64,000 nucleotides of DNA from an uncultured Methanomassiliicoccales archaeon (GCA_963695345.1 OY968769.1:288001-352000); one strand, 5' to 3'. Shown: positions 843 through 51,238, counted from the stretch's first letter. Made by a program: numbers and translations. Notes: generated by a model not told the origin, from the sequence alone.

Positions 843-931
843 TGGAGCAGGGACCGCGATTTGAACACGGGTATGCGGATATCCGCCATTGAAGGCTGCA
901 GTCCGCCACATGGCCGCTCTGTCATCCCTGC
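843..931 (-). tRNA. tRNA-Cys(GCA) with 15-nt intron at 37/38 (intron 881-895), CCA encoded
   Basis: Reverse complement folds: acceptor GCAGGGA/TCCCTGC, anticodon stem GCGGA/TCCGC, loop CT-GCA-G[CCTTCAATGGCGGAT]A, T-arm CCGTG-TTCAAAT-CGCGG, discriminator T + CCA; CTGC pairs with intron GCGG giving bulge-helix-bulge. Confidence 0.93.
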
Positions 932-32194: not shown

Positions 32195-32702
32195 CGGTAG
32201 ATGTTAGTAAGCTGCCGGCTGAAATGCTTTTCCATTGGACCATTACCACGAACCGGGCCATTATTCGGTCATTAAGCGAATGCAAAGCCGATGGGACCGT
32301 TTCCGATGCGATTGGGAATACGGACGGTTGCGAATGCTTCCGACTGAGTCCTCATAATATCTAATATATTCCATAAAGACTCAAAAAACAACCTTCGGAA
32401 CAGCCATTTTCGGGGCGGGTGGCTATTACATCCAGACAACTTTATGCAAAAATATAAGAAAATAGCCAGTAAAAAAAAGTGATAATGATTGGAATATAAC
32501 AATTAATGTAAAAGATATAAAAATAAGGTTTATTTATATGGAAGATATCCGAGATTTAAGCGCGGGATAGGCACAACCTCAGATTCCTCCAAACTCTGAC
32601 GCTTATCAATTCTGGCTTCTCCCGCGCCCCCCTAACTCCTAACTGTTCTATCGTGGCATTGACGCAATGCTTTTTACCCCATCCACCTTTCCCCTCCTGT
32701 CC

Positions 32703-35330: not shown

Positions 35331-35347
35331 ACCGGCTGAAACCACTT

Positions 35348-35749
35348 TCACTTTCTCTCTTTTCTATGACCTATCTCTGGGCCACGATGGCGATGAACCA
35401 TACGCCCAGACCGGCGCCGAGAAGGATGAGGCCCGGCTGAAGGTGCCCGATTATGGTGAAACCGGATACGAATGCCAGCAGCATGCCTACGATGCCTAGC
35501 CCGCCGCATACCCGGTAGCCGCGCCACATCTGCTTGATCGGCGATGAGGATGGAATCGTGCATGAACCAGACGATGATCAGGAGCATGATGATCGCGGCG
35601 TACTGCACATACTTCTCCGTCTCGTTGACGAAGGTGTTGAACAATACCCCGCCAGGGCTGAAGCCCAACGTGCCGAAAAGACCGAAGGTGAACATCGATA
35701 CGATCGGCTTTATCGAACGATACCGTTTCCTACGTCTCGCCATTCCCAT
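35348..35749 (-). CDS. Small membrane protein (frameshift at ~35510)
   Basis: Basic N-terminus followed by several hydrophobic segments continuing in a second frame. Confidence 0.6.
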   Translation of the reverse strand: MGMARRRKRYRSIKPIVSMFTFGLFGTLGFSPGGVLFNTFVNETEKYVQYAAIIMLLIIVWFMHDSILIADQADVARLPGMRRARHRRHAAGIRIRFHHNRAPSAGPHPSRRRSGRMVHRHRGPEIGHRKERK

Positions 35750-35892: not shown

Positions 35893-35965
35893 GTGGGCGT
35901 AGTGTAGCTGGTTATCACTCGTGCTTGCCAAGCACGAGACTCGGGTTCGAATCCCGACGCCCGCA
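35893..35965 (+). tRNA. tRNA-Gly(GCC), no CCA encoded
   Basis: GTGGGCG/CGCCCGC acceptor, CGTGC-TTGCCAA-GCACG anticodon arm, TCGGG-TTCGAAT-CCCGA T-arm; TTTAAA box ~40 bp upstream. Confidence 0.95.
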
Positions 35966-36248
35966 CTCATTCTTCATCCAGTCAGACGGAACAATTTCTC
36001 AGAAAAAACGAATTCTTCAGAATCGAGATCTGCAAAAGCCTATTGTCTGAATCCTTTCAACGAATGCTTTCTTGATTCGAAGTTTGAGATGATGATCCAT
36101 TTACCTAATGAACAGGCAACCGAATGAGGACTAGAACAAGTAAGAAAAGAAAGATAATCACGGAAAGATTTTTCGGAAAGGGTTTACTCGATTCGGATGG
36201 TCTGGTACTCTTTGATTTTTCTTAGTCCTTCTTATTGTCTACCTTGAC

Positions 36249-38637
36249 CTACGTCTTGTCAGAGTTCTTCCCGGTCCGCAGGATGATGAAGATCAAGATG
36301 ATGATCGCCAGCATAATCGAGATACCGATGCCGATCACTGTGGTTGAGTCGATCCCGTTGGTCTTGCTCTGAAGGCCTCCGACATCTGACTTGACCTGGC
36401 CCATGTTGGTGCTAATGGTGGCCACGGTCCCGTTCATGCTGGTCACGTTTCCCTTGATGTTACCGAGGGTGCTGGTCATGTTCACATTGTCACCCTGGAG
36501 GGATACGACCTTCAACCAGATGTCAGACACGTTCGCCTTTACCAGGCCGGCATCGGTCTGGATCGATGGCGACGGTTCCGTTCAGGCTGTCGATTTTCGC
36601 GTGCAGGTTGGCCAGACTTACCTGGACCATGCCGAGCGTCGTGTTGACGGAGGCGAGGTTACCCTCGATGCCCAAAACTTTAGCGTGAATTGCGTTTACC
36701 GTTGTGTTGGTGAATCCCAGGTCGGTATGGATGGTCGCTACTGTTCCATCGATGCTGGTCACGATCGTGTGTATGTCGTTCACATTGGTGGTAAGCGTTC
36801 CCAGGTCGGTTTCGATCTGAACAACAATGCCGCTGATGCTCACCACTGACGCGTGAATTGCGTTCACCGTTACGTTGGTGTACCCAAGGTCGGTTTTGAT
36901 ATGAACGACTGCGCCGTTGATCGAGACAACGATCGCATGGATGTCGTCGACGGTCGTGGTAAGCGTTCCCAGGTCGGTATGGATGGTTGCCAGTGTTCCC
37001 TGGATGTCGATCACCCTGGCGTGGATATCGTTCACCGTTGCGTTGGTGTAGCCCAGGTCGGTCTGGATGGTCGCTACTGTTCCATAGATGCTGGTGACGA
37101 TTGCGTTTATGTCGTTGACATTCGCTACCAGGTCCTGGATGTGATGTCGGTGTACACCGTGGCATGGGGTAAGCGTACCCAGGTCGGTCTGGATGGTTGC
37201 CATTGTTCCCTGGATGTCGATCACCCTGGCATGGATGTCGTTCACCGTTGTGTTGGTGTAGCCCAGGTCGGTCTGGATGGTCGCTACCGTTCCATCGATG
37301 CTGGTCACGATCGCGTGTATGTCGTCGACATTCGCGGTAAGCGTACCAAGGTCGGTCTGGATGGTGAATATGCCATACTCAATGTATGCCAGTCCCTCGT
37401 CGATGGAGGTTATGCTCTCCTCGATGATGCCGATATCGGTTTGGATGGTGACAACGTTTCCGTTTATGCTCATTATCCGTGCATTCATACCGACCAGTGT
37501 GTCAGATATGACAAAGGTCCTGAGCGAGCTTCCATAGTTGGACCCGCTGTTGACCGACAATACCAGGGTGTACTGGCCGGCAGGAGCGTATCCAGGTATG
37601 GTCCAGTCGACAATCCACACACCCGAGGTGATCCTGTACATATCTCCAGACAGGTCGGTGGTGCTTAGATTGGGCGCGTACAGCATAGCGTTCATATTCG
37701 TCGGGTCGAACAGATGTCCGTTAACGGTCATCGACATCCACCAAGTGACGATCTCGCCGGGGAAATGTATCGTTCCGACGTCCATCACGATATCGATGGG
37801 GGTGGCATCTCCTGATGCAAAGTCCCCCATGGTCAATCCATTGAACGCATTACCAGGTGAGGGGAAGGTCGAGACGGCGTAGGCGTGGCCACGGATGTCG
37901 GCGGGGGTATTGATAATCCAGTCCGCGCCACCAATGGTAGGCGCAACAAGTCCTAGGAATGTTATTGAGGCCAGGGAGGTGCAGGAATGGAACGTAAAGT
38001 CCCCGATGGTGGTGACGCTGTTGGGGATGATGATGGAGGTCAGGGCGGAGCAGTAGATGAACGCATAGGCCCCGATGGTGGTGACGCTGTTGGGGATGTT
38101 GATGGAGGCCAGGGAGGTGCAGGAACGGAACGCGTCGACACCGATGGTGGTGATGCTGTTGGGGATGATGAAGGAGGTCAGGGAGGTGCATTGTTGGAAC
38201 GCAGAGGCAGGGATGGTAGTGACACCGTTGGGGATGTTGATGGAGGCCAGGGAGGTGCAGGAATGGAACGCACCGACACCGATGGTGGTGACGCCACTTC
38301 CTATGGTCACGGAGGTCAGGGCGGAGCAGGAGAGGAAAGCATAAGTTCCGATGGTAGTGACGCTGTCGGGAATCGTCACGGAGGTCAGAGAGGCATATTG
38401 GAACGCAGTGATAGCGATGGCTCTGGTGGGAAACCCTCCCAACGTGGATGGTATGACGATATCTCCGCCGGTGCCGGTGTATCCGGTGATGGTAGAGAAC
38501 CCTCCGTTCTCGGTGTAGATATAGTCGCCGTCCTGTGCCGCTGACACGTTATCCGCGGCAACGACGACGAAAGCGCCCAGCAACAGCATGATCACAATCA
38601 ATATCGTTATCCCAAATATTCCTGACCTCTTTTCCAT
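36249..38637 (-). CDS. Surface adhesin-like protein: signal/TM, BspA-type LRRs, Ig-like domain, 21-aa repeat stalk, C-terminal TM anchor (frameshift at ~36560)
   Basis: CxxLTSVTIPxSVTTIGxxAF repeats; TIQTDLG repeats; tail VIGIGISIMLAIIILIFIILRTGK. Confidence 0.88.
36560..37480 (-). repeat. Coding tandem repeat, 63-bp unit (alternating 126-bp A/B pairs)
   Basis: Recurrent cccaggtcggt(c/a)tggatggt every ~63 bp; encodes xxIxGTxATIQTDLGxxxxxVxxIHA. Confidence 0.85.
37965..38420 (-). repeat. Coding tandem repeat, 69-bp BspA LRR units (about 6-7)
   Basis: Recurrent ggaggtcagggaggtgcag / ccgatggtggtgacgctgttgggg. Confidence 0.85.
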
Positions 38638-39378
38638 ATTACAAAACCCCTTAGACAGTGTAGCTCGGTTCGAAACGAATGGATATAAAATAGAATTCTG
38701 TCTACCAATCTTCAAGAACGATATTAAAGCGGCCTGTCTTATTATCATTTATAAAAATGAATTCGCTAATATCTAAGCAGCTTCAAATTTCCATCCAACT
38801 TCATTTATAATTGTGCCGCATGATCCACATTAGCATTTACCCCCTAGCGAAGTAAGAGGGTTCTTGAATTTCCTCTAGAAGAACGTTGATGGCGGTGGTC
38901 ACTGATTTTACCAGAGTTAAGATTCTACTCTACCTTCATAATTTCTTTCTCTTACCTTGATAAAGAACCAATTGCATCGCGACAAACGCAATTGCGACAA
39001 TGCCAGGCTCCGTTTTAATTTCAAAGTTTGCGAGCCAGTTCAGTCAGCTTCATTTTTCCGTCCATCCTAAACACTGTCCGATCCATCATCGACCTGGCCC
39101 CCAATCTCTATAGAAGGCAATGGAGGGTTCGTTCCAGTCCAAACACCGGCCGACATGGTCATTTATTATTGGTTGGATATTTAGTGGTGGGCGCCTGATT
39201 AGTTAGAAATGATTGTAGAGGTTGCACTAAGAAGGGAGAATCTTGTATTCCCGATCAGGATGTTTTGCCCATCACACAATACTGAAGAGAAGCATAAATA
39301 TTAACTATTAGATATTATTGCAATATATTAAATAGATGTGGAGGCTAATGGAATGATCGACGGTAAGGAGTTTGCAAC

Positions 39379-39663
39379 ATGGATAATACCACCGAAGAAA
39401 AGGCAGGCGTTCCACAGAATGATAATTTGACCGCCAACCCAGCACCGTCGTCTGGTCTAAATACCGATGAGTCCTTGAGGGGGAAGAAACGCAAATCCAG
39501 TCATATCGACAATAAGACCGACGCCATTTTCCAAGACACCATGGTCGGACCAGTGCCCGTGAGCCCTAAGACCGAACAGGGAATGGGGGATTCGAAGGTC
39601 GGAGTCGTGGAAGCCGTCCAGAATACAAAAAAGCGAAATAAATGGAAATTTTGGAAGTCATAG
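39379..39663 (+). CDS. Small disordered hypothetical protein ending KKRNKWKFWKS
   Basis: GGAG RBS, AT-rich promoter-like region upstream; basic/aromatic tail. Confidence 0.6.
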   Translation: MDNTTEEKAGVPQNDNLTANPAPSSGLNTDESLRGKKRKSSHIDNKTDAIFQDTMVGPVPVSPKTEQGMGDSKVGVVEAVQNTKKRNKWKFWKS

Positions 39664-39845
39664 AGAGATTTCAAGCAGGAAATCTTAATGTCCCGTTCCT
39701 TGTTACCCAATACGCATTTCCAGACATATATTTTTCAAATTCAACTCTGAATTTTAGGGAATAAGTTGAACCCCAGTCTGCGCGGTCTTCTCCATAAATT
39801 GATTTTGTTATCAAAATGACAAATGATATATAAACTATTGACTAT

Positions 39846-40787
39846 TTGATAATGGAAATGGCCAACTCACCTTATGTCTTCACAAGTAGTCAACTTGAGG
39901 TATTTCGGGAGATCTGTTTAGGTAGAAAGACAGTAAGAGAAATAGCTCAATTTTCCGATCAATCGATCAAGACCGTCTATAGGATAACGGAAATTCTAAG
40001 GAATTCGGGGATTTTAACAGCATCTGGCAGCCATGGAGCCCATTTCACACCCAGCACGGATCTTCGTTCAGCTGCTTTGAAACGCTACCTGCTGTCGGAG
40101 AAGCATCCGGTCGACGCGATAACAGGGTCAAAATTGCTTCTGTTGCTTTCCATTTCTCAAATGCCAAAGAGCATCGATAGGATTTCCAAGGAAACGTGCC
40201 TTAAGTATGATACTGTTAGAGTCCTTGCGTGGGCCTTGAAGAACTATGGTGTAGTCACTCAGACCCGAGACGAAATCGTGATTTCACCGACCGCCGCATC
40301 CATAACCCAATTCCTACAGGATTTCTCTAAGGGCATGAATCTGAGAATAATGGAACAGAGGACAAAGGTTGGGATCTTGACCTGGAGCGGCGGTCTGGAG
40401 TGCATCTTCTCGACTAGGGCCCTTGACGACTCGAGCAATGTCAAAAAAACCGGAATTTCGGCCATGGGCAGTTATGGTCTACGTTTCATCACTGAAAATG
40501 ATTATTATTATTACTCAAATTGGAACTCGGACCTGAGACCGGAAGATATCGCCATCCACAATATACTCACAAACCCCTTCAGTTCCACGGTTATCGGTTA
40601 CTCGATACTGTTCCTCAAGAGGACAGGATTCGATAGCGACTACCTTTTGGAAGTGTCGAGGGACGCGGGAATCGAGGAATTGGTGAAGGATATGACCAGG
40701 GCCATGGCCGGAGAGGTCGTTAAGAATAAGTTCATACCGACACCTGACGACATGCGTGACCTATCCGCCCAATATGGGGTGAGTTGA
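39846..40787 (+). CDS. Tandem wHTH protein with C-terminal domain; putative antitoxin/regulator
   Basis: KTVREIAQ...TVYRITEILRNSGIL; second HTH KSIDRISKET; TGISAMGSYG; ATGA-type overlap with next gene. Confidence 0.75.
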   Translation: MIMEMANSPYVFTSSQLEVFREICLGRKTVREIAQFSDQSIKTVYRITEILRNSGILTASGSHGAHFTPSTDLRSAALKRYLLSEKHPVDAITGSKLLLLLSISQMPKSIDRISKETCLKYDTVRVLAWALKNYGVVTQTRDEIVISPTAASITQFLQDFSKGMNLRIMEQRTKVGILTWSGGLECIFSTRALDDSSNVKKTGISAMGSYGLRFITENDYYYYSNWNSDLRPEDIAIHNILTNPFSSTVIGYSILFLKRTGFDSDYLLEVSRDAGIEELVKDMTRAMAGEVVKNKFIPTPDDMRDLSAQYGVS

Positions 40788-41614
40788 TGGAAACGGCTCA
40801 ATTCGACAAGAACGATGTGCTATCGGTGATGGGTGCCGCCGGGAAGATATGTTCGCGGAGAATTGCTGTGTACATGGTCGGTGGTGGAGCTATGGCCATA
40901 CGAGGAGAGAAAGCAGCCACCAAAGATGTTGATCTGATCTTGGAATCTGAAGAAGATGCAAAGGAACTAAGCGAGGCGTTCAAGGGTTTAGATTTCGAGG
41001 TGAATTCCAGACATCCCATGGAATGCAGGGAATTGGTCGATGCTGAGATAATGACAACGATGAATGGGATGAGGGTCGATATTTTTGTCAGAACGGTCTG
41101 CCATAAATTGTTCTTCAGCGAGGGGATGAAAGGTCGTTCTGAATTGGTCGGGGAAATGGGCCAGATATCTCTAAATATCTGTTCACGAGAGGATATATTC
41201 CTTTTAAAGAGCGTAACAGAACGGAACAGGGATTTGGATGATATGGTAGTGCTATACCGCAAGGGCATTGACAAAGACACTATCATGAAAGAATGTCAAA
41301 TCCAAGATCTGCTCGATTCGCAGGTTGGAGGGAGGATATGGGAGGCGTTCCTTTCTATTAAAATCGAAGAAATGGAAGGAAGGTTTGGTATTACTATCCC
41401 ATGGAAAGGTGAATTGAAAAGGATAGCGGACCTCAAACTTGGATGTGTCTTGGTTTTGAATAAGATTAGAGCAGGGTCGCATACCGTTAATGCCATCTCG
41501 ATGGAGCTCGGAATTAAACCAGCAGATATCAGGAAATATGTTGCATCACTTGAAGATGAGGGATTGGTTGTTTCAGATCGAAGCAAAAGGCCAAATCAGA
41601 TTTCGCTCAGATAA
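40784..41614 (+). CDS. Pol-beta-fold nucleotidyltransferase (DUF6036/AbiEii-like) with C-terminal wHTH
   Basis: YMVGGGAMAIRG-KAATKDVDLI, DIFLLKSVTERNRDLDD; C-terminal TVNAISMELG...YVASLEDEGLV. Confidence 0.8.
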   Translation: MMETAQFDKNDVLSVMGAAGKICSRRIAVYMVGGGAMAIRGEKAATKDVDLILESEEDAKELSEAFKGLDFEVNSRHPMECRELVDAEIMTTMNGMRVDIFVRTVCHKLFFSEGMKGRSELVGEMGQISLNICSREDIFLLKSVTERNRDLDDMVVLYRKGIDKDTIMKECQIQDLLDSQVGGRIWEAFLSIKIEEMEGRFGITIPWKGELKRIADLKLGCVLVLNKIRAGSHTVNAISMELGIKPADIRKYVASLEDEGLVVSDRSKRPNQISLR

Positions 41615-41872
41615 TGCAATGTTAACGACAAAATACAATTGTTCAAAGGGGCAAGAGGTTCGAATCTCCTTGATCATACTTACCATAATTCTTGAGACCT
41701 TTGAATGGTTATCTGGAGTTCCAGGGTTTAAATCCTAAAGCACTCACTCTCAACCATATCCAAGCAGATAATTTCTAAATTCAATTTTGGGGGAAAATGC
41801 ACCTGGGTTGTCCGGGATAGTTTTCCATGCCCTGATCATCGTGTCTTGCCCTTTCAGACACCAGTAGATCTG

Positions 41873-42694
41873 TCAGATAGTGAGTGCTTTTTGCTTTTCG
41901 AACTTGCTATCCTTCTTTCCTACCCAGTAGTAGTTCGGTGTTTGGAACTTGGGCATGATCTTTTTTATCTTTTTATGTAAGGTTGCATAGTTGCCTTTGA
42001 ACTTGCCTTCATTCCAGACGATCTTCAGATTTGATGTGAACAGGCTATTCCTGACCCCTGCCCTGGATGTCTGCCAATCCTGGCATCCTGAGATCAACAA
42101 TATCGATGCCTTCACGTCCGCTTCTTTGATGTTTGAGGTTTCAGCCTGGATCCGATCATAGAATTCTTTGTTCTGTTCATAGACACCTTTCACCATCGAG
42201 TCAGGCATCGCCTTGGTTTGGAATTGAGGGGATGGCATACCTCCCTTTATTGAACGAACGATGTCGCCTTTGGTTACAGTCCCACTATGACAGCTGTCAG
42301 AAATGACAACGACCCGCACACCCTCGGCAAAGTTGGCATAACGGACCAGAAGTTCATCATCCATTATCTCCCCATCATAGAGACACCAGGTCTCGTCCTG
42401 CTCATCATCCTCATCCCCATTGACATCTGGCAACCAACTCCCATGGCCCGAGTAATAGACCGCGAAGATGTCACCGCTTTCCAGTTGGTTGGCGGCTATG
42501 GTCATCTCGTCTATCACCGATTGACGGGTGGCAGCCTCCGTAAGAAGGATCTTCACTTCGAACCCCTTAGATAAAGCAATATCGGCCATATCGTCGGCGT
42601 CCGATTCGCATGGAGTCAAGTATCCATCCCAGTCATTGTACTTGCCTGGATCTACTCTGTTCAGCCCGATTATCAGCGCTATTCCCTTAGGCAT
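41873..42694 (-). CDS. Metacaspase (peptidase C14), cytoplasmic
   Basis: ALIIGLN, DADDM, YYSGHG (His), DETWCLYD, ISDSCHSG (Cys), ISGCQDWQTS, SLFT. Confidence 0.93.
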   Translation of the reverse strand: MPKGIALIIGLNRVDPGKYNDWDGYLTPCESDADDMADIALSKGFEVKILLTEAATRQSVIDEMTIAANQLESGDIFAVYYSGHGSWLPDVNGDEDDEQDETWCLYDGEIMDDELLVRYANFAEGVRVVVISDSCHSGTVTKGDIVRSIKGGMPSPQFQTKAMPDSMVKGVYEQNKEFYDRIQAETSNIKEADVKASILLISGCQDWQTSRAGVRNSLFTSNLKIVWNEGKFKGNYATLHKKIKKIMPKFQTPNYYWVGKKDSKFEKQKALTI

Positions 42695-42993
42695 CTTATT
42701 CCCCCACTATTTTCGACCTGAGGTCATTATGACCGCGATAATTACATTCGCTATGTATGAATAAAATATTTTCCATGATTTGATTCAGTGGCGTATAGGA
42801 TTGAATGAGTTGAAAAACCTGGAATTGAACCTGAAGATGGAAGGTTATTGTAATAGGTTATTCGAATCCTTGTTGGATTCGTTCTAGAGGAGGGGCAAAG
42901 GCAGTGGGACGTTCATTGTCGAACACATCTGAAAACTCGCTTTAGGGTGACTTCATTAGGCTTTTTTCATAGCCTTTTCACTTAGTATCTCAT

Positions 42994-45520
42994 TCATTTT
43001 CCCCTGAAATCCAAGATCACCCCATCCTTCGCTCTCATGAAAAGGACAGGTGTGGCGAAGTCCCTTTTGTCTAGGCCTTCCTTTATGGAAATATAGTTCC
43101 TTGTCAATTGCACCGCCTCATCCACCGGTTTTGCCAGGGCAAGACTGCGATAGAATTTGTCAGCGAAGAGCTTGGATGTGGTATCCTTGACAGAATACTG
43201 CATGGCGATGATCGCTGGTATCCCTCTTTGCACAAGACGCGGGGCCATGCCCGTAAACACCTGACTGGATGATACTGTGGCCCCTTCGCAAGAATTGAGG
43301 ACCACCAGGCCCAGTCCTTCTTTTCCCAGGAATAGGTTGGCAAAGCGTTGGTCATCCAACAATATTGCGCGTTCGTGTTCATCCATCAAGGCGATCTGAC
43401 CCTTGTCGTCCTTGAATATGCCGTGTCCGATGAAGTGAAAGATGTTGTAGTGTTTCTCACTCAATTTTTGATCGATCTCGTCAATCGTTGCCTTGGTAAG
43501 CACATCGATCTCGATCTGGCCCGCATAGACATGACATTTCAGGGCCTCTTTGATCATTTTCTCCTCGGCGAGCGAATCGAGATGGGCCAGATCTTTCGGG
43601 CTGGATATGACCAAAAGAATCTTCAGAGGAAGGCTGGCAGGTTTGAGGTCCTTTCTTCTCAGGGGAATATCGATGTACCTCGAAAGGGTGGTCCTGGAGT
43701 CGTTGGCCAGGAATGTGTTTGTGCTGTCATCATACAGAAATTCCCAGGGAATGGCGGCTAGTTCCGGCTTTTCGAAGATTAGACGCAGGCGGACACCACA
43801 TCCGTTCTGGTCCGCTTCAACCTTCGTCGCCGCAAAGTGTCGTGAGAGTTTTACACCAAAGAGCGCGTTGAAAAGAGTACTTCCAACGTTCTTCAAAAGA
43901 TCCTCATTCGTCTTGTCAGCCAATATTAGCTGTAGGTTGGAATCAAAGACATCGCGATCCAGGCTCAATTCGCCATGGAGTTCCCCTTGATCCGACGATG
44001 CCAGAATGTCCCCGTCCTCTTGGACCCTAATCGATAGATCGCAATAATCGGTGTGGGTTGGCAGGGACCTGATGGAGGCCCTCTCAGATGTGCCTGGTAT
44101 GATCGTAGGGATTGGGTCTTCGTGCGTCGATTTCTCAGTTGGGCTGGGTGCAACTATTGTGGTAACCACAGCATCGGCTTTTTTCAGATCGTCATGACCG
44201 ATTTCAGGCAATTTTGATTTGTTGAAGCCACCTTCTGATGTGATGGGATTGATCGAAGGGTCAATGGTTTTTTGGTGATCCTTCCTGATTCGGGCCATTA
44301 TCTTGTTTCGAGAACCTGGAACGACAAAAAGAACTGCAACTCCGATCGTCACCAAAACGACCATCGCTACCAGCAAAATTTGAGCGATATCACCTCCTGA
44401 TGATATTCCCACTTCAATAACTGATGTCAGTGGACCTACTCCAGCCGAGCTCGCGGCTCTGACCTGATAGTAATATTTCTGACCAACGATAATGTTCTTG
44501 TCAACGTAATTTGTCCCAGAGACATTTGTAATCAATGAGAGTGAATCGGATGATGTCCCTCTGTACACTAAATAGGCGGTAATATTGCCACCGCCGGTGC
44601 TACTTGGTGCCGCCCAACTGAGGGTGACTTGAGAAGCGCCAGGAGTGGCGACAAGCCCTGTGGGAGCTCCAGGCATTAATGGAATGATCTCGCCCATCGT
44701 CAGTCCATTCCAGATTCCTCCGGGTCCAGGGAAATTCGATTGGCCATATGCATGGCCCATTAGCCCTGAAGAGGTATCAGATATCCAATCCATGCCAACA
44801 ATGGTGGGTGCAATGGATCCCAAGAAGGATAACGACACCAGGGAGGTGCATCGAAAGAAAGCATAGTCCTCGATGGTCATGACACTATCAGGGATGATCA
44901 CGGAGGTCAGGGAGGTGCAGGATTGGAAAGCGGAGACTCCCGATGGACGTAACGCTGTTGGGAATTGTCACGGAGGTCAGGGAGGTGCAGTAGTAGAACA
45001 CAGAATATCCGATGGAGGTGATGTTATTGGGAATTGTCACGGAGGTCAGGGAGGTGCATGCGGCGAATGCAGAGCTCCCGATGGACGTAACGCTGTTGGG
45101 AATTGTCACGGATGTTAAGGAGGGGCAGTAATTGAATGCGTAGTCCTTGATGGTCATGACACTATCGGGGATGATCACGGAGGTCAGTAGGTCGCAACCA
45201 TAGAACGAATAGCTCCCGATGGACATGACACTATTGGGAATTGTAACGGAGGTCAGGGAGGTGCGGTTACGGAAAGCACCATTATCGATAACCACGACCG
45301 TATACCCACCCAACGTTGAAGGAACAGTGATCGCTCCACCAGTGCCACCGTATCCTGTGATCGTAGCGACTGAGGGACTTCCACTTACTAGTGTAATGAG
45401 TATTCACCTTCCTGGTATGCTTCCGCGATACTTGGGATGACAATGGAGAGAGCACCCAGTAGCAAAACTAGCATGATGATGGCGGATATCCTATCAATCG
45501 CTGCCTTTTTTTCCGTTTAT
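42994..45520 (-). CDS. Receptor-like protein: signal peptide, BspA LRRs, FN3, TM, cytoplasmic CHAT protease (frameshifts at ~44935, ~45395, ~45510)
   Basis: IMLVLLLGALSIVIP-AEA; LRR units; PGAPTGL...YYYQVRA FN3; IAQILLVAMVVLVTIGVAVLFVV then RNKIMARIRK; LRLIF, IPWEFL, HFIGHG, VVLNSCEG, AMQY, FYRSL, FATPVLF. Confidence 0.85.
44830..45280 (-). repeat. Coding tandem repeat, 69-bp BspA LRR units (about 6-7)
   Basis: Recurrent ggaattgtcacggaggtcagggaggtgc. Confidence 0.85.
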
Positions 45521-45848
45521 GATCTCCCCCTTATTCCTCTCAATTCGTCAGATTGAGTGCTTAATAAATTTAGACTATCTGACAATATAAGGATTTGTCA
45601 TCTTCCTTATTAGGCCCCGCTGATTGTCCTCATGATCATTCTCAGTCAGCAGGTCAAGAATTGGAACTAAGAAATTCAAGCCAAATGTAAGAAAACTTCA
45701 AAAAGATATATATGAGCGCAAATGCTAGTAATTTTATATATTGTTTGGGATAGCTGTTCTCCGATATGAAAACGGCCAGAAAGGGATGATCTGGATAAGA
45801 TACCAATAGTAAAATTCTTCAGGGAATAGAGAGGAGTTGAGTAGGGGC

Positions 45849-47223
45849 ATGTGTTCGAAAGAAGGGCAATGGACAATAATGGTGTACATGGCAGGGGACA
45901 ACAATCTGGATGAGGCGGGTCTCCTCGATCTCGAGGAAATGAAGAAAGTAGGTTCATCAGATCAGGTAGAAATCGTTGTCCAGTTTGATTGCAGAGGGAA
46001 GGACAGTACGACATCCAGATACCACATAAGAAATGATACCGACCTGGACGATGATTTGATCCAGGAATTGGGACAAACTAACACGGGTGATCCTGAAGTG
46101 TTAGAAGAGTTCATAAGATGGGGTGTAGAAACATATCCATCCTCTCATTACATGCTTGTCCTATGGAACCACGGCAACGGATGGGATGATGATGTTGTAT
46201 TTCGGAGTCAAAAAATATCATCAGAAGAACCTGTCTATAGGTCAATCGTATCGAAGGTAGGGGAGACCCCAATATCGAAAGTAGAAGGGTTGTCAATATC
46301 AAAGGTAAAGGAAGCCCCATCGTTGTTTGGCAAGATGGATCTGGATATACGACGTGATCTGATAAAAAGTCGTTTCCATCGCAGCCTTTTCATTACCACG
46401 GTTGACCAGGCAGTCAAAACAAGAGCGATCCTCATAGATGATAATGCCAAGGACTTCCTGGATAACATCGAGATGAAGAACGTTCTCGAATCTGCTTGTG
46501 CGAGGATCGGGAAGAAGATCGATATCCTGGGAATGGATGCTTGCCTGATGAGCATGGTCGAAGTTGGATATCAGCTGAAAGATAGCGTTTCATTGACCGT
46601 TGGTTCACAGGAAGTGGAACCGGGAGCAGGGTGGCCTTACCAGCAGATCCTGCAGAGGCTTTCGGACAATCCATCAATGACGCCGGAGGAGCTGTCAAGC
46701 ACTATCGTTACCGAATACATCACCTCATTTGAAAATACTAAAAAGGATGTGACACAATCGGTCTTTGACCTGTCGAAGTCAGACGATCTCATCTCCGCTC
46801 TGGATCGATTTGTGGCTGCGGTGAATGACCATGTAAAAGATCCGGCAACGGCCAAGGATACGAAATCCGCTATTGTGAACGGTCGGGCAAGAGCTCAATC
46901 CTATGCTAGGTCTGATTATATCGATCTCTTTAATTTCTGTGAATTGGTAGGAAAGAATATCGATTCCGATGAGATGAAAGAGGCTTGTCAGTCGGTTATG
47001 GATGATCATTAGGCCAAGCGGATTCGTCGCCAGTTCTGGTTACTATGGAAAAGATGTCAAAGGATCGAACGGAGTGTCCATATATTTCCCCATGAAACAG
47101 ATGTCCGAGAAGGTATCCGAGCTGTATTCCGGACTAGATTTCGCCCAGATGTCGACCTGGATGAGCTTCATTATGGACTATCTCAGCGATTGGGAGAATG
47201 CCAAGGAATTGATACCAGCGTGA
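45849..47223 (+). CDS. Clostripain-family protease (peptidase C11), no signal peptide (frameshift at ~47005)
   Basis: WTIMVYMAGDNNL, NTGDP, VLWNHGNGW (His), GMDACLMS (Cys), GSQEVEPGAGWPY, YIDL, GVSIYFP. Confidence 0.92.
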
Positions 47224-47501
47224 GATGAAACCGGAATATCCCGCTCGTAACTCGAATAGAGCGGGACAATAGTTTTTCTAAGGGTGGAACTCGAGAAACA
47301 TGAATGATCGAGGACAGCGAGGGTTTCTGCCATATAAAAATGGGATCCTGATGTAATAAATCGGCCATACCATAAGGAGAACAACTGATGGTCGAGCAGA
47401 TCGATTTGGACTGAACCCGCCTTAGATTATGGATACCTTCTTATTATGGGAATTTGGCAAGCGTCTCTAAAATGTCCTTGGGACTTATTTCATAGGCTTT
47501 C

Positions 47502-48482
47502 TCATTGGTATGTAAGTTTAGTAGAGCTTGACCGCGGAAGTGGCAGCTCCCCTCTGCTCATGTGGTGTACCCAGGTGTCGAAGACATAGGACATGTGGAC
47601 AATGGTGTGATTTGTCTCCTTCACACAATCGCTATTGGTGATAGTCGATACACATTCATTTACCTCGCTCAACGACTGGAACATTCCATCGAATGTGACA
47701 AGGTCAGGAGCGTTGGAATAGTCCCATCCAGAGGTATACATGTGTCCACCATACTTGGACATCTGGTCGAAGAAACGATCTTTGGACGCTGGATCGTTCA
47801 GCCGGACATATGAGGCAAACCAGATATCGCCTGAAACACCTAGATAAAAATCGACCTCGTTTTCAATGAGGCCGTTCTTCAGCATGAAGTCAATTCTCTT
47901 CTTTATTGTCCTGGAGGAGATGCCGGTCTCCTGCGAAATCGAACGTATCGTCTTTCGACCATCTTCATTGAGCTGACGGATTATTTTCATGTCTGTGTTG
48001 GTGAGGTTATTCAGATTGCCATGAGAAGAGTTCTGGATGGTCTCTTTCCGATAACTGAATAAACCGCTACTTGACGATTTACATGACATGATACTGATTT
48101 TTGGATCGACGAGGTCCAGCCGCTCCATCAGAAAACTCATCACTTCCGCGATGTCCTCTTGCTCTCTGATGTCGACGTGACAAGCAACGTAGTTGTAAGC
48201 GCATTGGAGAACTCTACTGATGGATCCGTGGTCCATCAATCCCTTGATCACTTCCGAGGTCAGTTTAATCTTCGCTTGCCCATGGAAGAACACCCACTTC
48301 CCACCGAGAGCATCAAGGGAAAGGCGGTAACGGATCGATCTAATCCGACCACTATTGAAGAGGGACTCCACTCTCCTTTGGGCGGTCGGAACGGAGATAC
48401 ATAGTTGGTTGCTGATCTCTCGATATGTCAATCTTGGGTCACGTTGGAGCGAAATGATCAACTTCCTATCGAGCTCGTCCAC
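47502..48482 (-). CDS. Double-domain Lrp/AsnC transcription regulator
   Basis: DELDRKLIISLQRDPRLTYREIS and LTNTDMKIIRQLNEDGRKTIRSIS HTHs; GTG start after GAGGGG. Confidence 0.85.
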   Translation of the reverse strand: MDELDRKLIISLQRDPRLTYREISNQLCISVPTAQRRVESLFNSGRIRSIRYRLSLDALGGKWVFFHGQAKIKLTSEVIKGLMDHGSISRVLQCAYNYVACHVDIREQEDIAEVMSFLMERLDLVDPKISIMSCKSSSSGLFSYRKETIQNSSHGNLNNLTNTDMKIIRQLNEDGRKTIRSISQETGISSRTIKKRIDFMLKNGLIENEVDFYLGVSGDIWFASYVRLNDPASKDRFFDQMSKYGGHMYTSGWDYSNAPDLVTFDGMFQSLSEVNECVSTITNSDCVKETNHTIVHMSYVFDTWVHHMSRGELPLPRSSSTKLTYQ

Positions 48483-48876
48483 AGTACCCCTCCACTTTCT
48501 CCCCCAGTTCAATAATGTCTTGATCTAAATTTAATAGCTATTATCGATGGAAATATTTAATTAACGTTAACTATGTCATTTTCTCTAACTGGCATATATT
48601 ACAATGTCAATATTATTTCACGCTACCGATGCATGACGATTTAGTCAGATACCTCCAATTCTCTAAGTGTCCGGGTCATATCGGAACAAGGGGGAGTTGG
48701 AGAATGTGTTCATGGAGAGATGGAACGGAGGAGATAGGTAAGGCAACGGAACCGAAGGTCAATGGGTCAAAGAAGTATGCGATCGAAAAACCGGAAGAAA
48801 GCCCTAATTCGCGAATCCTCATCCTCGTCTCGAGGATGGAGGACCCAGATTCATTCGGAGCCGGTAAGGAGGAAGG

Positions 48877-49149
48877 ATGATGTATGGACCGATGGTGCCA
48901 CCATCCCGGCCAAGGAACCAATCACCGGAGCTTAGGCAATACGCGGCCAATGAATGGCGCTCCAATCCTTACCTGCTGGTCCTGGAAGCGGAACGGCTGG
49001 CAGAGGAAAAGAGGAAGGGAATAAAGCCGAAAGAAAGAGGCAGAACAAGCTTCTTCAAAAAATTCTTGACTTCATTGTTGAAGAGAATGTCAAAGAAACA
49101 ACATGAGAGTGAATCCGAATCGTTCATGGTTCGGCAGGGAAGAGAATGA
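48877..49149 (+). CDS. Small hypothetical protein
   Basis: Strong GGAGG RBS; 90-aa basic ORF. Confidence 0.55.
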   Translation: MMYGPMVPPSRPRNQSPELRQYAANEWRSNPYLLVLEAERLAEEKRKGIKPKERGRTSFFKKFLTSLLKRMSKKQHESESESFMVRQGRE

Positions 49150-49248
49150 TGATGATCTGATCGATCCCTTTTACAATGATATCCTCGAAAAGAATACTAC
49201 GAAATCAAGATCGGCCACATGACAATCGATCCCTATTCCAAAGTTCGT

Positions 49249-49707
49249 TCAATTGGTCTTACTCACTTGACTTTTGTCATATATCCTGGATCCATATAGC
49301 ATATAACCGATCCCTATCAGGACGAGGATGATCTCACCGACCGTAACGGCCAGCGGGGGAGCGACAGTGAAGAAGAATAGCGCCTGGTCTGCAGGTGCGG
49401 TGAGGAATAGCAGAGCAGCGTTAACCATCGCCAAAGCACCGGCGATCTTTGGTCTTCTGAATAAAGGTAGCAGCCCGGCAATCGGCATCAATAACCCAAT
49501 GACGATAAGGAACGCGGCGAATGCCAGGGTTCTCATCTCACTCATCCAGGTCTCGAATCCCAACGGGGTCAAGAGGAAGCCCAGAACAGTCCCGAACACG
49601 AAAAGGACTGCCAGGATCCGTTCCGACTTCCCCGAAGTCGTAATCTTATCATCTTTATGGCCATTTCTTTGGTCTCCCGTTGATTCAATTTCTTTGTTAT
49701 GGAGCAT
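49249..49707 (-). CDS. Four-TM membrane protein
   Basis: Four hydrophobic segments, LLTPLGFET. Confidence 0.7.
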   Translation of the reverse strand: MLHNKEIESTGDQRNGHKDDKITTSGKSERILAVLFVFGTVLGFLLTPLGFETWMSEMRTLAFAAFLIVIGLLMPIAGLLPLFRRPKIAGALAMVNAALLFLTAPADQALFFFTVAPPLAVTVGEIILVLIGIGYMLYGSRIYDKSQVSKTN

Positions 49708-50177
49708 GATTCAGTTGAACGAAAGTACGGCAACTTAGAGTAAATTGAATGGTATTGCCCATAACATAAATGCTTGTTGCTCGAACCTCATACTCTATCG
49801 AAGCCAGTATGTCGATTTCCTTGAGGAGGAGTATCCTAAATTACCCTTTATCGGCTATCTTTAGTACCTGTGTGGAGCGACCTGGAGTTCTAAAAGAATG
49901 ATGACAATAGACCGGAGGCAACGACATTAGCATTAATGATGTCAGGATTCAATTTCTCATACACAGTCATTCATTTTATTCCTGTTGCATAATATTGAGA
50001 ATAATGATATGAATGCAGCATCCAATGCGACCAATGATATCATCATATACTAAACCAGGATTCCGAATTATTAGTGTTGGATGTATCATCCAACTAGCAA
50101 TTCCAGAATATCAACTATCGATGGTGTTACATTTGAATGACAGCCGAGTAATAGAGACCAGGGTAGTAGTCAAGGAT

Positions 50178-50774
50178 ATGACCGCGAGTCCGGAAGCTTT
50201 AGGAGCGATGCTCCTTGGATGGTTGGCGATTCTGCTATCCCTCAGCTCTCTGAAGGTGTTCGCGCTGAGCGGTATGGTATTGGCGATGGTGTTCTTCGCT
50301 GGTTTCGGATTCCTTCTCGTCGCGTATATGGGATGGAAGAAAGGATCGCTGTTCACATTGTTCGCGTTCGGTGCAATAGCGATATTCTCCTGGTCCTTCG
50401 CGGCGCTCATGATAATGCCTCGGGTAGGTCTTTCCGAGCCACCGACCGTTAACGAGCTCGCATCGTTCATGATCATCTTCGCTTCATTGGTAGGGGTGCT
50501 CGCGTTGATCACCGTGAAGATGCCATGCCGTCTTCTGACCGTCACGGTGTTCTTCGCTTCCATCCTGTTCTTCCTCGTAGGGTTCCAGATATACACCCAA
50601 AACGAAACTGTCGCCATGGTATCTGGATGGTGGGGTCTGTTAGTCGGCGTCCTGGCCATGTATCTAGGTTCGGCGATGACATTGAACGACACCTATGGTC
50701 GCATGGCCGCCCCATTGATGATACGCATGCCAAAGGAGTCCAAGAAACAGGAGTTCGTCGAGGCAGGCAAGTAG
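50178..50774 (+). CDS. GPR1/FUN34/YaaH (SatP) acetate/succinate channel family, divergent
   Basis: ASPEALG approximates ANPAPLG; six TMs; SGWWG...AMYLGSA...NDTYGR. Confidence 0.75.
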   Translation: MTASPEALGAMLLGWLAILLSLSSLKVFALSGMVLAMVFFAGFGFLLVAYMGWKKGSLFTLFAFGAIAIFSWSFAALMIMPRVGLSEPPTVNELASFMIIFASLVGVLALITVKMPCRLLTVTVFFASILFFLVGFQIYTQNETVAMVSGWWGLLVGVLAMYLGSAMTLNDTYGRMAAPLMIRMPKESKKQEFVEAGK

Positions 50775-51238
50775 GACAGAATAACGGCAGGCAACCCCTT
50801 TTATTTTTTTTCAATTTAATTAATCAGCGAGATGGCCATCCTTGTTCTTCCTATCGATATTCGACTTCCATATGTCCGGCATCGCTTTGCATCTTCTAGC
50901 CTCATCCTTTCATGGACCGCTCGACCTGGTCGAGATTGTACGAGATCGATAGTACAGAGTGGTCGATATCCTATCCAGTAAGAAGGATAAAAGAACGGTA
51001 AAATCGCCTTTCTTGATCTGGCCTGATGTGAAACTAAGGCAGTTAGGAAAAAGCAGTTTGACCTCAGCCTTTGCCTGCCTGGTTGCGAGAGAGCTACATC
51101 ATGAAAAAGAGAAGTTGTGCCGTGTCCCATCATCCCGGAGACACGGCATTTCCGACCGTATGTCTAGTTTTCGATCCCCCATATTCGAGGAACGCTTTCA
51201 CGCTCATCTGTGAATGCTGCCCCTGATGCCCCTTCGGA

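What the first reader, a model, noticed from the sequence alone, without database searches (positions are those of the whole stretch)
41873..47223. Three-protease clan-CD locus (CHAT receptor + metacaspase + clostripain): candidate archaeal proteolytic signalling or immune cascade
Seen: three adjacent genes, each from a different caspase-fold family, all with intact His/Cys dyads (C14 SGHG/DSC, CHAT GHG/NSC, C11 NHG/DAC). The CHAT is membrane-tethered. The metacaspase follows ~300 bp downstream on the same strand. The clostripain is divergent across a ~330-bp AT-rich spacer and lacks the signal peptide typical of secreted clostripains, so all three active sites would be cytoplasmic. Known: CHAT and caspase-like proteases act as triggered effectors in prokaryotic immunity (Craspase TPR-CHAT, bacterial gasdermin activation). 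Inference: an initiator-to-effector protease cascade driven by an extracellular cue. No gasdermin or obvious substrate gene is visible. I know of no described archaeal system with this trio.
Basis: partly seen in the sequence, partly recalled or inferred. Interest (0 to 1): 0.9.

Follow-up and report, generated by a model that had tools for sequence, protein, structure and literature searches.

The report
Archaeal receptor-CHAT with two partner caspase-fold proteases
A strain-specific island in an archaeal genome holds a membrane receptor ending in a caspase-like protease, flanked by two small soluble caspase-fold proteases, and related protease pairs sit side by side in many other microbes, so the three probably form one proteolytic signalling or suicide module.

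Summary
Window 41873-47223 carries three adjacent clan-CD protease genes with intact His/Cys dyads: a 273-aa metacaspase of the GSU0716/PDB 3BIJ family, a signal peptide-LRR-FN3-TM-CHAT receptor, and a cytoplasmic C11 of a conserved ~428-aa family. The receptor has two frameshifts and the C11 one. Single-copy LeuRS in the same window is also frameshifted, and a ~93%-identical metagenome contig lacks the extra base in C11, so assembly error is likely.

The genes are linked, mostly as pairs. The genome has a second metacaspase-CHAT pair. CHAT is the commonest upstream neighbour of this metacaspase family (7 of 147 flanking genes). After dereplication, 12 of 42 C11 loci have a CHAT or C14 protein adjacent. 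One Desulfatibacillum contig holds all three plus Pepco. Two other small-protease loci hold membrane-spanning CHAT proteins.

The locus sits in a low-GC island beside tRNA-Gly that congeners lack.

Best reading: a conflict-system-type protease module, conceptually like SAVED-CHAT to PCaspase. Cascade order, extracellular trigger and immune role are inferred. It is a new variant of a known kind.

The parts
35893..35966 (+). tRNA-Gly(GCC), left border of the strain-specific low-GC island
   Evidence: ARAGORN. Six congeners match at 85-91% up to this point and not beyond. GC is 0.472 for 35967-51200 against 0.574 to the left and 0.55 to the right.
41873..42694 (-). Prodomain-less metacaspase (C14) of the GSU0716/PDB 3BIJ family, 273 aa, soluble
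   Evidence: PF00656 E 8.3e-22. Family profile against 3BIJ: E 4.5e-138 over the full length. His84 and Cys135 invariant. No hydrophobic window.
42695..42993 (.). 299-bp spacer between the CHAT stop and the metacaspase start, GC 0.39; no ORF with any family hit
42994..44901 (-). Main frame of the receptor: last LRR, FN3, transmembrane helix, about 90-aa linker, about 350-aa CHAT protease module
   Evidence: fn3 E 3.9e-8 (residues 79-163) and CHAT E 1e-30 (residues 339-601). TM at about residues 172-195 followed by a basic cluster. His493 and Cys538 invariant.
44888..45403 (-). Second frame of the receptor: BspA-type leucine-rich repeats (69-nt units). Frameshifts near 44,930 and 45,400.
   Evidence: LRR_5 E 1.1e-41, 69-nt repeat family D1/D2, frames read
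45391..45474 (-). Third frame of the receptor: hydrophobic signal-peptide-like N-terminus. The frame is open upstream to 45516.
   Evidence: It resembles the N-terminus of the paralogous LRR surface protein at 36523-38748.
45475..45848 (.). 374-bp AT-rich divergent spacer between the receptor and C11 starts (GC 0.38)
45849..47012 (+). C11 peptidase, N-terminal and catalytic part (387 aa from ATG). No signal peptide. The His-Cys linker is longer than in relatives.
   Evidence: PF03415 E 1.7e-53. His108 and Cys232 invariant. No hydrophobic window.
47002..47223 (+). C11 C-terminal piece in the next frame, after a frameshift near 47,005
   Evidence: It aligns to the C-terminal end of the intact 412-aa C11 of L015 and of about 428-aa relatives. 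A related contig lacks one base at 47005.

Best explanation
The locus is one horizontally acquired protease module of the 'conflict system' kind. Its parts are:
- a single-pass membrane receptor with extracellular BspA-type LRRs and FN3 and a cytoplasmic CHAT protease;
- two small soluble cytoplasmic clan-CD proteases, a GSU0716-type metacaspase and a ~428-aa-family C11.

Working model (inferred):
1. Binding or clustering of the ectodomain brings the CHAT domains together and switches them on, as oligomerisation does for SAVED-CHAT.
2. CHAT then cuts the basic inter-domain linkers of the metacaspase and/or the C11.
3. These act as broad executioner proteases, causing growth arrest or death.

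Shown here: the domain content, the intact dyads, the predicted topology, the island context, and the recurrent adjacency of these protease families elsewhere.

Inferred: that the three proteins act on each other, the order of cleavage, the extracellular trigger, and the biological role (defence against viruses, or contact or kin response).
For: - Same genome: a second metacaspase (70% identical) lies directly upstream of a soluble 464-aa CHAT at C1:113488-115312.
- Metacaspase family, 80 species-level loci, 79 with the ORF called:
  - CHAT is the commonest upstream neighbour, 5 of 73. It is the downstream neighbour in 2 of 74.
  - My CHAT HMM finds CHAT within 8 kb in 12 of 79 loci.
  - Adjacent versus non-adjacent ORFs: 7 of 147 against 6 of 672, Fisher p = 0.003.
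- C11 family, 80 metagenome loci:
  - The gene immediately downstream is CHAT in 8 of 61 and C14 in 5 of 61. Upstream it is CHAT in 0 of 63.
  - Dereplicated at 90%: 12 of 42 loci have CHAT, a truncated lipase-CHAT, or C14 adjacent.
- The window CHAT domain is 35-36% identical (E 6e-55 and 7e-45) to CHATs lying directly downstream of C11 in L112 and L111.
- Both small proteases partner the same type of giant protein. DUF7379/LCAT lipase plus CHAT sits next to C14 in L050, L064 and L084, and next to C11 in L116 and L100.
- L015 has C14, C11, Pepco, a PAS/GAF protein and CHAT on one strand.
- Membrane-spanning CHAT proteins beside small clan-CD proteases: L111, CHAT-CHASE2 after C11; L052 (Nitrososphaera), CHAT-TM-HYR/PKD beside the metacaspase.
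- Downstream neighbours of C11 match defence-library models: caspase 5, SAVED_CHAT 5, ThsB 2, ThsA 1, Dsr2 1, of 61.
- Precedents: SAVED-CHAT cleaves and activates PCaspase (preprint passages). Caspase-like proteases activate latent effectors (PMC12642450, sections read).
Against: - The full trio was found in only 1 of 79 metacaspase loci and 0 of 80 C11 loci.
- Most neighbours of either small protease are unrelated genes: 67 of 74 and 64 of 73 around the metacaspase have neither CHAT nor C14.
- The C14 proteins next to C11 elsewhere are a different, roughly 600-aa type, not the GSU0716 type.
- CHATs next to GSU0716-type metacaspases are only 24-27% identical to the window's.
- C11 is divergent from the receptor here, but co-directional and upstream of CHAT elsewhere.
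- No substrate or effector gene (Pepco, EACC1, hydrolase, gasdermin) was seen in the window.
- PADLOC has no model hitting the C11.
- Two of the three genes carry frameshifts in this assembly.
- There are no expression data and no interaction test: the complex predictor was unreachable.
- Four neighbour entries were substituted by hand for spurious opposite-strand ORFs. They account for 1 of the 5 upstream CHAT counts, the single C11 count, 2 of the 5 downstream C14 counts, and 1 of the 2 upstream C14 counts.
Confidence: 0.55

Rival explanations
1. Chance juxtaposition. The island has simply accumulated three independent caspase-fold proteases, each working alone or with partners elsewhere. 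There is no cross-talk.
For: - The island is a strain-specific variable region where unrelated accessory genes collect.
- The exact trio is almost unique.
- Most homologues of each small protease have unrelated neighbours.
- C11 is on the opposite strand.
Against: - The families are rare: they rang in 1, 1 and 3 of 14 control genomes.
- Adjacency to CHAT/C14 is enriched for both small proteases.
- There is a second metacaspase-CHAT pair in the same genome.
- The window CHAT is closest, among the loci examined, to C11-adjacent CHATs.
- L015 holds the trio.
Confidence: 0.2
2. The same module, but not immunity. It is a surface-sensing regulatory protease pathway, for example adhesion, envelope or cell-cell contact signalling, or a developmental or cell-division role like the CHAT protease HetF, in which limited proteolysis changes physiology rather than killing the cell.
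For: - The ectodomain is a BspA-type LRR like the neighbouring surface protein at 36523-38748. Recalled, not tested here: such domains usually mediate adhesion.
- The best NCBIfam match of the CHAT part is HetF, though far below its cut-off (84.5 against 1200 bits).
- No canonical defence genes or killing effector lie in the window.
Against: - Relatives of all three proteases sit with lipase, TIR, SIR2, PLD and Pepco domains, and with matches to defence-library models.
- The CHAT subfamily is fused to EADs and STAND/AAA sensors typical of conflict systems.
- The module is patchy and horizontally moved.
Confidence: 0.15
3. Decaying remnant. The receptor and the C11 are true pseudogenes, and only the metacaspase, if anything, still works.
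For: Two frameshifts in the receptor and one in the C11. The receptor's paralogue-like start position reads ACG, not ATG.
Against: - Single-copy, essential LeuRS in the same window is also split by a frameshift, as is the second metacaspase.
- Genome completeness is 85% against 93-99% for most congeners.
- A ~93%-identical metagenome contig lacks one base exactly at the C11 break.
- Outside the breaks there are no stops, and all catalytic residues are kept.
Confidence: 0.1

Closest known systems
SAVED-CHAT / PCaspase cascade of the Haliangium ochraceum type III-B CRISPR locus (Steens et al.; preprint 10.1101/2023.06.23.546230, passages read)
   Same: A CHAT protease gene lies next to a small C14 caspase gene. 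There, sensor-driven oligomerisation activates CHAT, which cleaves and activates the caspase, which then cleaves many proteins. The PADLOC SAVED_CHAT model hits the window CHAT domain (E 8.4e-13).
   Different: The window has no SAVED domain and no CRISPR or CBASS genes. Its sensor is an extracellular LRR-FN3 ectodomain with a TM helix. Its metacaspase is of the GSU0716 type (dyad His84/Cys135, against His79/Cys146 reported for PCaspase). A third protease (C11) is present. No sigma factor, inhibitor or kinase partners were seen.
Protease-effector modules of prokaryotic conflict/defence systems (Kaur et al. 2020, PMC7159879, passages; Evans et al. 2025 preprint, PMC12642450, abstract and sections 3, 4, 7 read)
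   Same: A caspase-like protease is linked to a latent effector and to swappable sensors. Relatives of the window's proteases sit with alpha/beta-hydrolase/lipase, TIR, SIR2 and Pepco genes. The CHAT subfamily is fused to EADs, AAA/STAND and Roc-COR.
   Different: None of the described effectors (Pepco, EACC1, MBL, alpha/beta-hydrolase) is in the window. The partners here are further proteases. The words clostripain and C11 do not occur in the main text of PMC7159879. Supplements could not be opened.
GSU0716 of Geobacter sulfurreducens (PDB 3BIJ), called a bacterial type I metacaspase without prodomain (PMC3734836, passages)
   Same: Full-length family match (E 4.5e-138). Same length, p20 plus p10 with a roughly 50-aa linker, and no prodomain.
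   Different: No function or partner is described for GSU0716 in the passages read. The CHAT/lipase-CHAT neighbourhood found here is additional.
Clostripain and PmC11-type C11 peptidases (PDB 9CIP, 6N9J, 6MZO, 3UWS)
   Same: Same fold and the same His/Cys dyad. A linker between the His and Cys segments carries conserved basic residues. Recalled, not tested here: this is where C11 enzymes are cut for activation.
   Different: It is not clostripain proper: TIGR02806 scores 68.6 bits against a cut-off of 550. It has no signal peptide and is predicted to be cytoplasmic. It belongs to a tight ~428-aa family whose members often precede CHAT or C14 genes.
Craspase (type III-E gRAMP with TPR-CHAT) and bacterial gasdermin-protease systems
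   Same: A CHAT or caspase-like protease acts as a triggered output in prokaryotic immunity.
   Different: No gRAMP/Cas, TPR-CHAT architecture or gasdermin was found among the ORFs scanned in the window.

Membership tests
Peptidase C14 (PF00656), GSU0716-type metacaspase | Pfam model above the gathering score | tested here: met
   78.4 bits against 21.4, E 8.3e-22
Peptidase C14 (PF00656), GSU0716-type metacaspase | Catalytic His and Cys in the p20 part; full-length likeness to GSU0716/3BIJ | tested here: met
   His84 and Cys135 invariant in A1. Profile against 3BIJ: E 4.5e-138, positions 1-278 against 1-277.
CHAT (PF12770) | Pfam model above the gathering score and a His/Cys dyad | tested here: met
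   107.6 bits against 24, E 1e-30. His493 and Cys538 invariant in A7.
Peptidase C11 (PF03415) | Pfam model above the gathering score and a His/Cys dyad | tested here: met
   182.9 bits against 25.8. His108 and Cys232 invariant in A4. The gene is interrupted by one frameshift.
Clostripain proper (TIGR02806 equivalog; secreted) | Equivalog score above the cut-off; N-terminal signal peptide | tested here: not met
   68.6 bits against 550. No hydrophobic window, and the protein starts about 8 residues before the first conserved strand.
SAVED-CHAT / PCaspase system | SAVED (cyclic-oligonucleotide sensor) domain fused to CHAT | tested here: not met
   Pfam finds only fn3 and CHAT in the 635-aa frame and LRR_5 upstream. 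The PADLOC SAVED_CHAT hit covers model positions 92-253 of 498 only.
SAVED-CHAT / PCaspase system | CHAT gene adjacent to a C14 caspase gene | tested here: met
   299 bp apart on the same strand in the window. A second pair lies elsewhere in the genome.
SAVED-CHAT / PCaspase system | CHAT cleaves and activates the caspase | not testable with these tools
   Needs biochemistry. The complex predictor was unreachable.
Protease-effector defence modules (Pepco, EACC1, MBL, alpha/beta-hydrolase) | One of the described latent effectors encoded next to the protease | tested here: not met
   No such family turned up in window ORFs 32.6-58.7 kb scanned with Pfam. No small ORF was seen in the spacers. The L015 Pepco has no tblastn match in the genome better than E 1.5. 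caspase_w_EACC1 scores 31.2 bits against 140. Such effectors are present in relatives' loci.
Anti-phage defence system (any) | Protection against phage or MGE in a host | not testable with these tools
   Only context evidence is available: defence-library matches among neighbours of relatives.

The most novel reading that the evidence does not exclude
Archaea, and some bacteria, possess 'death-receptor-like' outside-in caspase signalling. A transmembrane receptor, with an LRR/FN3, CHASE2 or HYR/PKD ectodomain, senses an extracellular ligand such as an adsorbing virus, a neighbouring cell or a surface. Through its cytoplasmic CHAT domain it directly fires a two-tier clan-CD protease cascade (CHAT to metacaspase and/or C11). 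The ~428-aa C11 family would then be a previously unrecognised, widespread partner protease of CHAT/caspase conflict systems.
Probability: 0.2. Interest if true: 0.85.

Novelty: new variant of a known kind. Interest (0 to 1): 0.6.

Why it matters
Caspase-like proteases are now known as triggered outputs of prokaryotic immunity, and one CHAT-to-caspase cascade has been shown biochemically. This locus and its relatives would add three things.

1. A conserved cytoplasmic C11 family appears to be a regular partner of CHAT and caspase proteins. I found no paper stating this in searches. Supplements were closed.
2. The GSU0716 metacaspase family has a solved structure, but no function or partner in the passages I read. 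It would now have a genomic partner, CHAT and lipase-CHAT giants, which gives it a testable role.
3. Membrane-spanning CHAT proteins with extracellular domains in archaea hint that a caspase-type cascade can be driven from outside the cell.

Each point can be tested directly with cleavage assays and catalytic-dead controls.

Tried and rejected
- Complex prediction (window CHAT module 283-635 with the metacaspase, both as alignments) was requested seven times. The machine did not complete, so there is no result.
- Sequencing runs: only one holder was listed, a DNA-type sediment metagenome kept as contigs, with a 0.05 share of words. No RNA holder was listed. Laid at 85% likeness it gave partial cover. 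The LRR region attracted many repeat-like partial matches, and 45112-45479 had no cover. The two receptor frameshifts could therefore not be judged.
- Bacterial-type promoter and terminator scans were no better than shuffles, and they are not apt for an archaeon.
- No direct repeat of the tRNA-Gly end marks the right island border, and no integrase was seen among the ORFs scanned. The right border near 51.2 kb rests on GC and loss of synteny only.
- Pepco was looked for in the genome and in all fetched loci. It was found only in L015.
- The HTH protein and the DUF6036-like nucleotidyltransferase-HTH pair at 39846-41614, and the Lrp/AsnC-type regulator at 47502-48512, were considered as parts of the module. 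They have no counterpart next to the relatives' proteases (0, 1 and 0 hits), so they were left out.
- Literature: 'Pepco' with CHAT and caspase gave only unrelated papers, and 'Pepco domain' gave none. The clostripain, Peptidase_C11, PF03415 and DUF7379 searches gave nothing on defence or conflict systems.
- Neighbour calling used a greedy longest-ORF rule, which in GC-rich loci picks spurious opposite-strand ORFs.
  - Four entries were replaced by hand before the Pfam tallies: the L015 C11 (A2), the L050 giant (A3), the L166/L167 C14 proteins (A5) and the L136 C14 protein (A6).
  - L078 was dropped because no caspase ORF could be called.
  - The sets used were assigned by hand.
- For L052, Pfam at 1e-4 did not list CHAT. 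Its CHAT call rests on BLAST (5e-11), my HMM (9e-9) and the visible His and Cys motifs.

Full report
WHAT IS THERE.

The window is G000:C1:288001-352000 of a 2.56-Mb single-contig genome with 85% marker completeness. The organism is an archaeon: Rfam keeps the archaeal SSU model over its clan rivals, at 1522 bits over the full length.

Between 41873 and 47223 lie three genes of three caspase-fold (clan CD) families.
- 41873-42694 (-) encodes a 273-aa Peptidase_C14 protein (E 8.3e-22).
- 42994-44901 (-) encodes fn3 (residues 79-163) and CHAT (residues 339-601, E 1e-30).
  - The frame just upstream, open from about 45403 to 44888, encodes BspA-type LRR_5 repeats (E 1.1e-41).
  - A third frame (45474-45391, open to 45516) encodes a hydrophobic signal-like N-terminus.
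- 45849-47012 (+) encodes Peptidase_C11 (E 1.7e-53). Its C-terminal 70 residues continue in the next frame at 47002-47223.

The catalytic dyads are intact and fall on invariant columns of family alignments:
- His84 and Cys135 in the metacaspase (20 sequences);
- His493 and Cys538 in CHAT (27 sequences);
- His108 and Cys232 in C11 (17 sequences).

A Kyte-Doolittle scan finds one strong hydrophobic stretch in the receptor, at about residues 172-195 of the 635-aa frame, followed by a run of basic residues. It finds none in the metacaspase or the C11. By the positive-inside rule (inference), the LRR and FN3 parts face out and the CHAT module faces the cytoplasm. The other two proteases lack any signal sequence, so they share that compartment.

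The spacers are 299 bp (GC 0.39) and 374 bp (GC 0.38).

ARE THE BROKEN GENES REALLY BROKEN?

The receptor has two frameshifts, near 45,400 and 44,930, and the C11 has one, near 47,005. Four results point to assembly indels rather than decay.
1. Leucyl-tRNA synthetase in the same window is split into 32667-34601 and 34547-35440 by a frameshift. It is the only LeuRS copy in the genome.
2. The second metacaspase of the genome is also frameshifted near its N-terminus.
3. Completeness is 85%, against 93-99% for six of the seven congeners.
4. A 4347-nt contig from a sediment metagenome run covers 45766-47300 with 114 differences in 1535 bases. It lacks one base at 47005, exactly at the C11 break.
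   - Other contigs of that run cover the CHAT domain (42991-44060, 147 differences, no gaps) and part of the metacaspase.
   - The two receptor breaks could not be judged.

CONTEXT.

The region from 38 to 50 kb has GC 0.45-0.48, against 0.51-0.62 elsewhere in the window and 0.56 for the genome. Six congeners match the window at 85-91% from LeuRS up to the end of tRNA-Gly (35966) and then stop. The right flank (from about 51.2 kb) matches at 77-78%, but at unlinked places. Nothing between 41.8 and 47.2 kb matches any congener; the only match is the genome's own paralogue. The metacaspase was found in 0 of 40 relatives of the genus, family and order. The locus therefore lies in a strain-specific, probably horizontally acquired island beside a tRNA gene. 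No integrase or flanking repeat was found.

THE FAMILIES.

The metacaspase.
- It belongs to a very large and tight family: 7492 hits at E <= 1e-3 among 8000 scored, roughly 270-280 aa long, and 52-57% identical across Desulfuromonadales, Syntrophaceae, Methanothrix, WOR-3, cyanobacteria and Brocadia.
- Its solved member is GSU0716, PDB 3BIJ (E 4.5e-138). One paper calls it a bacterial type I metacaspase without prodomain (PMC3734836, passages).

The C11.
- It belongs to a tight ~428-aa family: 2214 hits, 45-50% identical, with none of the aligned members carrying a signal sequence.
- It is not clostripain proper: TIGR02806 scores 68.6 bits against a cut-off of 550.

The CHAT module (about 350 aa, starting near residue 283).
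- It belongs to a subfamily that is 57-74% identical across archaea and cyanobacteria.
- This subfamily is fused to AAA/STAND ATPases, effector-associated domains, Roc-COR/LRR, TPR, FGE-sulfatase and CarboxypepD_reg domains.
- Of the 120 top hits, 9 have a transmembrane stretch in the order CHAT-TM-extracellular domain, one of them from Methanothrix.

ARE THE THREE LINKED?

Same genome. A second CHAT (soluble, 464 aa) lies directly downstream of a second metacaspase (70% identical) at C1:113488-115312.

Around the metacaspase family. I fetched 80 species-level loci (589 of 600 pattern matches were relatives). ORFs could be called in 79.
- Pfam tallies of the immediately flanking genes:
  - upstream, of 73 scanned: CHAT 5, C14 4;
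  - downstream, of 74 scanned: CHAT 2, C14 2, TIR 3, LCAT-type lipase 3, C11 1.
- CHAT is the commonest upstream neighbour.
- A CHAT HMM built from the hits finds CHAT within 8 kb in 12 of 79 loci.
- Adjacent ORFs are CHAT in 7 of 147 cases, against 6 of 672 for the other ORFs of the same loci (Fisher p = 0.003).
- The adjacent CHAT proteins in L050, L064 and L084 are 1800-1950-aa giants with DUF7379 and LCAT-type lipase domains, CHAT and, in two of them, TPR-S.

Around the C11 family. I fetched 80 metagenome loci (566 of 598 pattern matches were relatives). The median locus is 5.3 kb, and 58 loci have at least 600 bp downstream.
- The gene immediately downstream, of 61 scanned: CHAT 8, C14 5, LCAT/alpha-beta-hydrolase 5, DUF7379 4, TIR 2, SIR2 1.
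- The upstream gene is heterogeneous, with CHAT in 0 of 63 (+1 against -1, Fisher p = 0.0012).
- Clustering puts the lipase/CHAT neighbours of 18 loci into one family.
- After collapsing C11 proteins at 90% identity there are 59 clusters, 42 of them with downstream sequence. Of these, 6 have CHAT at +1, 1 has a truncated lipase-CHAT and 5 have an adjacent C14.
- Architectures:
  - LCAT lipase plus CHAT (L100);
  - DUF7379 plus CHAT (L116);
  - CHAT plus CHASE2 with four hydrophobic stretches (L111; TM scan);
  - a 597-aa C14 (L134);
  - phosphoesterase plus C14 (L138);
  - PLD (L154);
  - TIR-PASTA (L123).
- The window's CHAT domain is 35-36% identical (E 6e-55 and 7e-45) to the C11-adjacent CHATs of L112 and L111, and 33% identical to those of L116-118. 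The genome's second CHAT is 30% identical to L107 and L100.

The two small proteases thus accompany the same kind of partner protein in different organisms.

The trio. The full trio recurs once. L015 is an 11-kb contig of a Desulfatibacillum MAG. It carries, all on one strand, the metacaspase, a 412-aa intact C11, a Pepco protein, a PAS/GAF protein and a CHAT protein. No C11 locus holds both CHAT and C14.

Receptor-like CHATs. Beside the window there are two more next to small clan-CD proteases.
- L111: CHAT-CHASE2 after C11.
- L052 (Nitrososphaera): an N-terminal CHAT-like domain, a TM stretch, then HYR and PKD domains, divergent from a GSU0716-type metacaspase.

Defence context. Of the 61 downstream neighbours of C11, PADLOC models match caspase in 5, SAVED_CHAT in 5, PD-T4-6 in 2, BovA in 2, ThsB in 2, and ThsA, Dsr2, LmuA, PDC-S25 and Csx23 in 1 each.

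HOW IT MOST LIKELY WORKS.

Established knowledge.
- In the Haliangium type III-B locus, cA3-driven filament formation activates SAVED-CHAT. It then cleaves and activates PCaspase, which degrades many proteins and gives an abortive phenotype (preprint passages).
- Caspase-like proteases of defence modules unleash latent effectors by site-specific cuts after Arg (PMC12642450, sections 3, 4 and 7).
- Recalled, not tested here: metacaspases, clostripain-type C11 enzymes and many CHAT relatives cut after basic residues, and C11 enzymes are activated by cleavage in the His-Cys linker.

What the alignments show.
- The C11 family keeps a basic Arg-Arg-rich motif in the His-Cys linker.
- The metacaspase family keeps a basic residue two positions before the invariant Met163-Pro164 of the p20-p10 linker.

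My model, which is inferred.
1. The ectodomain binds or is clustered by an external ligand.
2. The cytoplasmic CHAT modules are brought together and become active.
3. They cleave the linker of the metacaspase and/or the C11.
4. These then act as broad executioners.

The reverse order, in which the small proteases license CHAT, is not excluded. The window's CHAT subfamily is mostly used as the output of cytoplasmic sensors.

No separate killing effector is encoded in the window. This fits a protease-as-effector design like PCaspase, but it also leaves room for a non-lethal regulatory role.

COMPARISON AND NOVELTY.

Membership in C14, CHAT and C11 is met. Membership in clostripain proper, in SAVED-CHAT systems (no SAVED domain) and in the described protease-effector modules (no Pepco, EACC1, MBL or hydrolase) is not met. 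The logic, a sensor plus a caspase-like protease plus a second protease, is that of known conflict systems.

What I did not find in print:
- the regular pairing of this C11 family with CHAT or C14 proteins;
- the pairing of GSU0716-type metacaspases with lipase-CHAT giants;
- an LRR-FN3-TM-CHAT receptor with both small proteases in an archaeon.

The searches behind that statement were made, plus the word search of PMC7159879. Supplements of those papers were closed and may list such neighbourhoods. I therefore rate the finding as a new variant of a known kind.

VERDICT.

My confidence in the best explanation as a whole (a functionally linked module of the conflict-system kind, with the cascade order and extracellular trigger inferred) is 0.55. 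Within that, the specific receptor-driven cascade deserves only about 0.2-0.3 on present evidence. Interest is 0.6.

Noticed in passing
window 32667-35440 (+): Leucyl-tRNA synthetase is split into a 644-aa and a 297-aa ORF by a frameshift near 34,540. It is the only LeuRS copy in the genome, so this marks indel errors in the assembly.
   Followed up: yes
G000:C1:113488-115342 (L007 7105-9400, minus strand): A second metacaspase (70% identical, itself frameshifted near its N-terminus) lies directly upstream of a soluble 464-aa CHAT protein. The region's GC is 0.58, so it is not a low-GC island. The last ~90 residues of the CHAT ORF look out of frame.
   Followed up: partly
L015 3367-11017 (+): A Desulfatibacillum MAG contig carries metacaspase, C11, Pepco (PF24393, a protease-activated pore former according to PMC12642450), a 1076-aa PAS/GAF protein and a CHAT protein in one row. 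It is the only other trio found.
   Followed up: partly
window 39846-41614 (+): Two genes overlap by 4 nt. The first is a wHTH protein with an HVO_2833_C domain. The second is a DUF6036-like nucleotidyltransferase (just under the Pfam cut-off, with a weak AbiEii hit) carrying a C-terminal wHTH. The pair looks like a toxin-antitoxin-type pair. One congener (G004) has a 68% DNA match.
   Followed up: no
window 36523-38748 (-): A 741-aa surface protein with BspA-type LRRs and a long array of 84-nt (28-aa) repeats. Its N-terminus and LRR units are paralogous to those of the CHAT receptor. One repeat unit reads aberrantly, which may be compensating indels.
   Followed up: no
window 51239-54634 and 55463-58732 (-): Two proteins of about 1100 aa, each with eight FN3 domains. 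The first also has a thioredoxin-like hit and a C-terminal SfLAP-like membrane part. The first gene (51239-54634) matches congeners at 77-78%, but at non-syntenic places.
   Followed up: no
protein P0049: A 395-aa metagenome protein fuses a Barstar domain (PF01337) to the N-terminus of a GSU0716-type metacaspase. This hints at coupling to a barnase-like toxin system.
   Followed up: no
window 843-931 (-): The tRNA-Ala(TGC) call is 89 nt long, longer than a standard tRNA, and possibly carries an intron.
   Followed up: no
window 47502-48512 (-): A 336-aa protein with two Lrp/AsnC-type wHTH domains lies convergent with the C11 gene. It is a possible local regulator, but relatives' loci have no counterpart.
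   Followed up: partly
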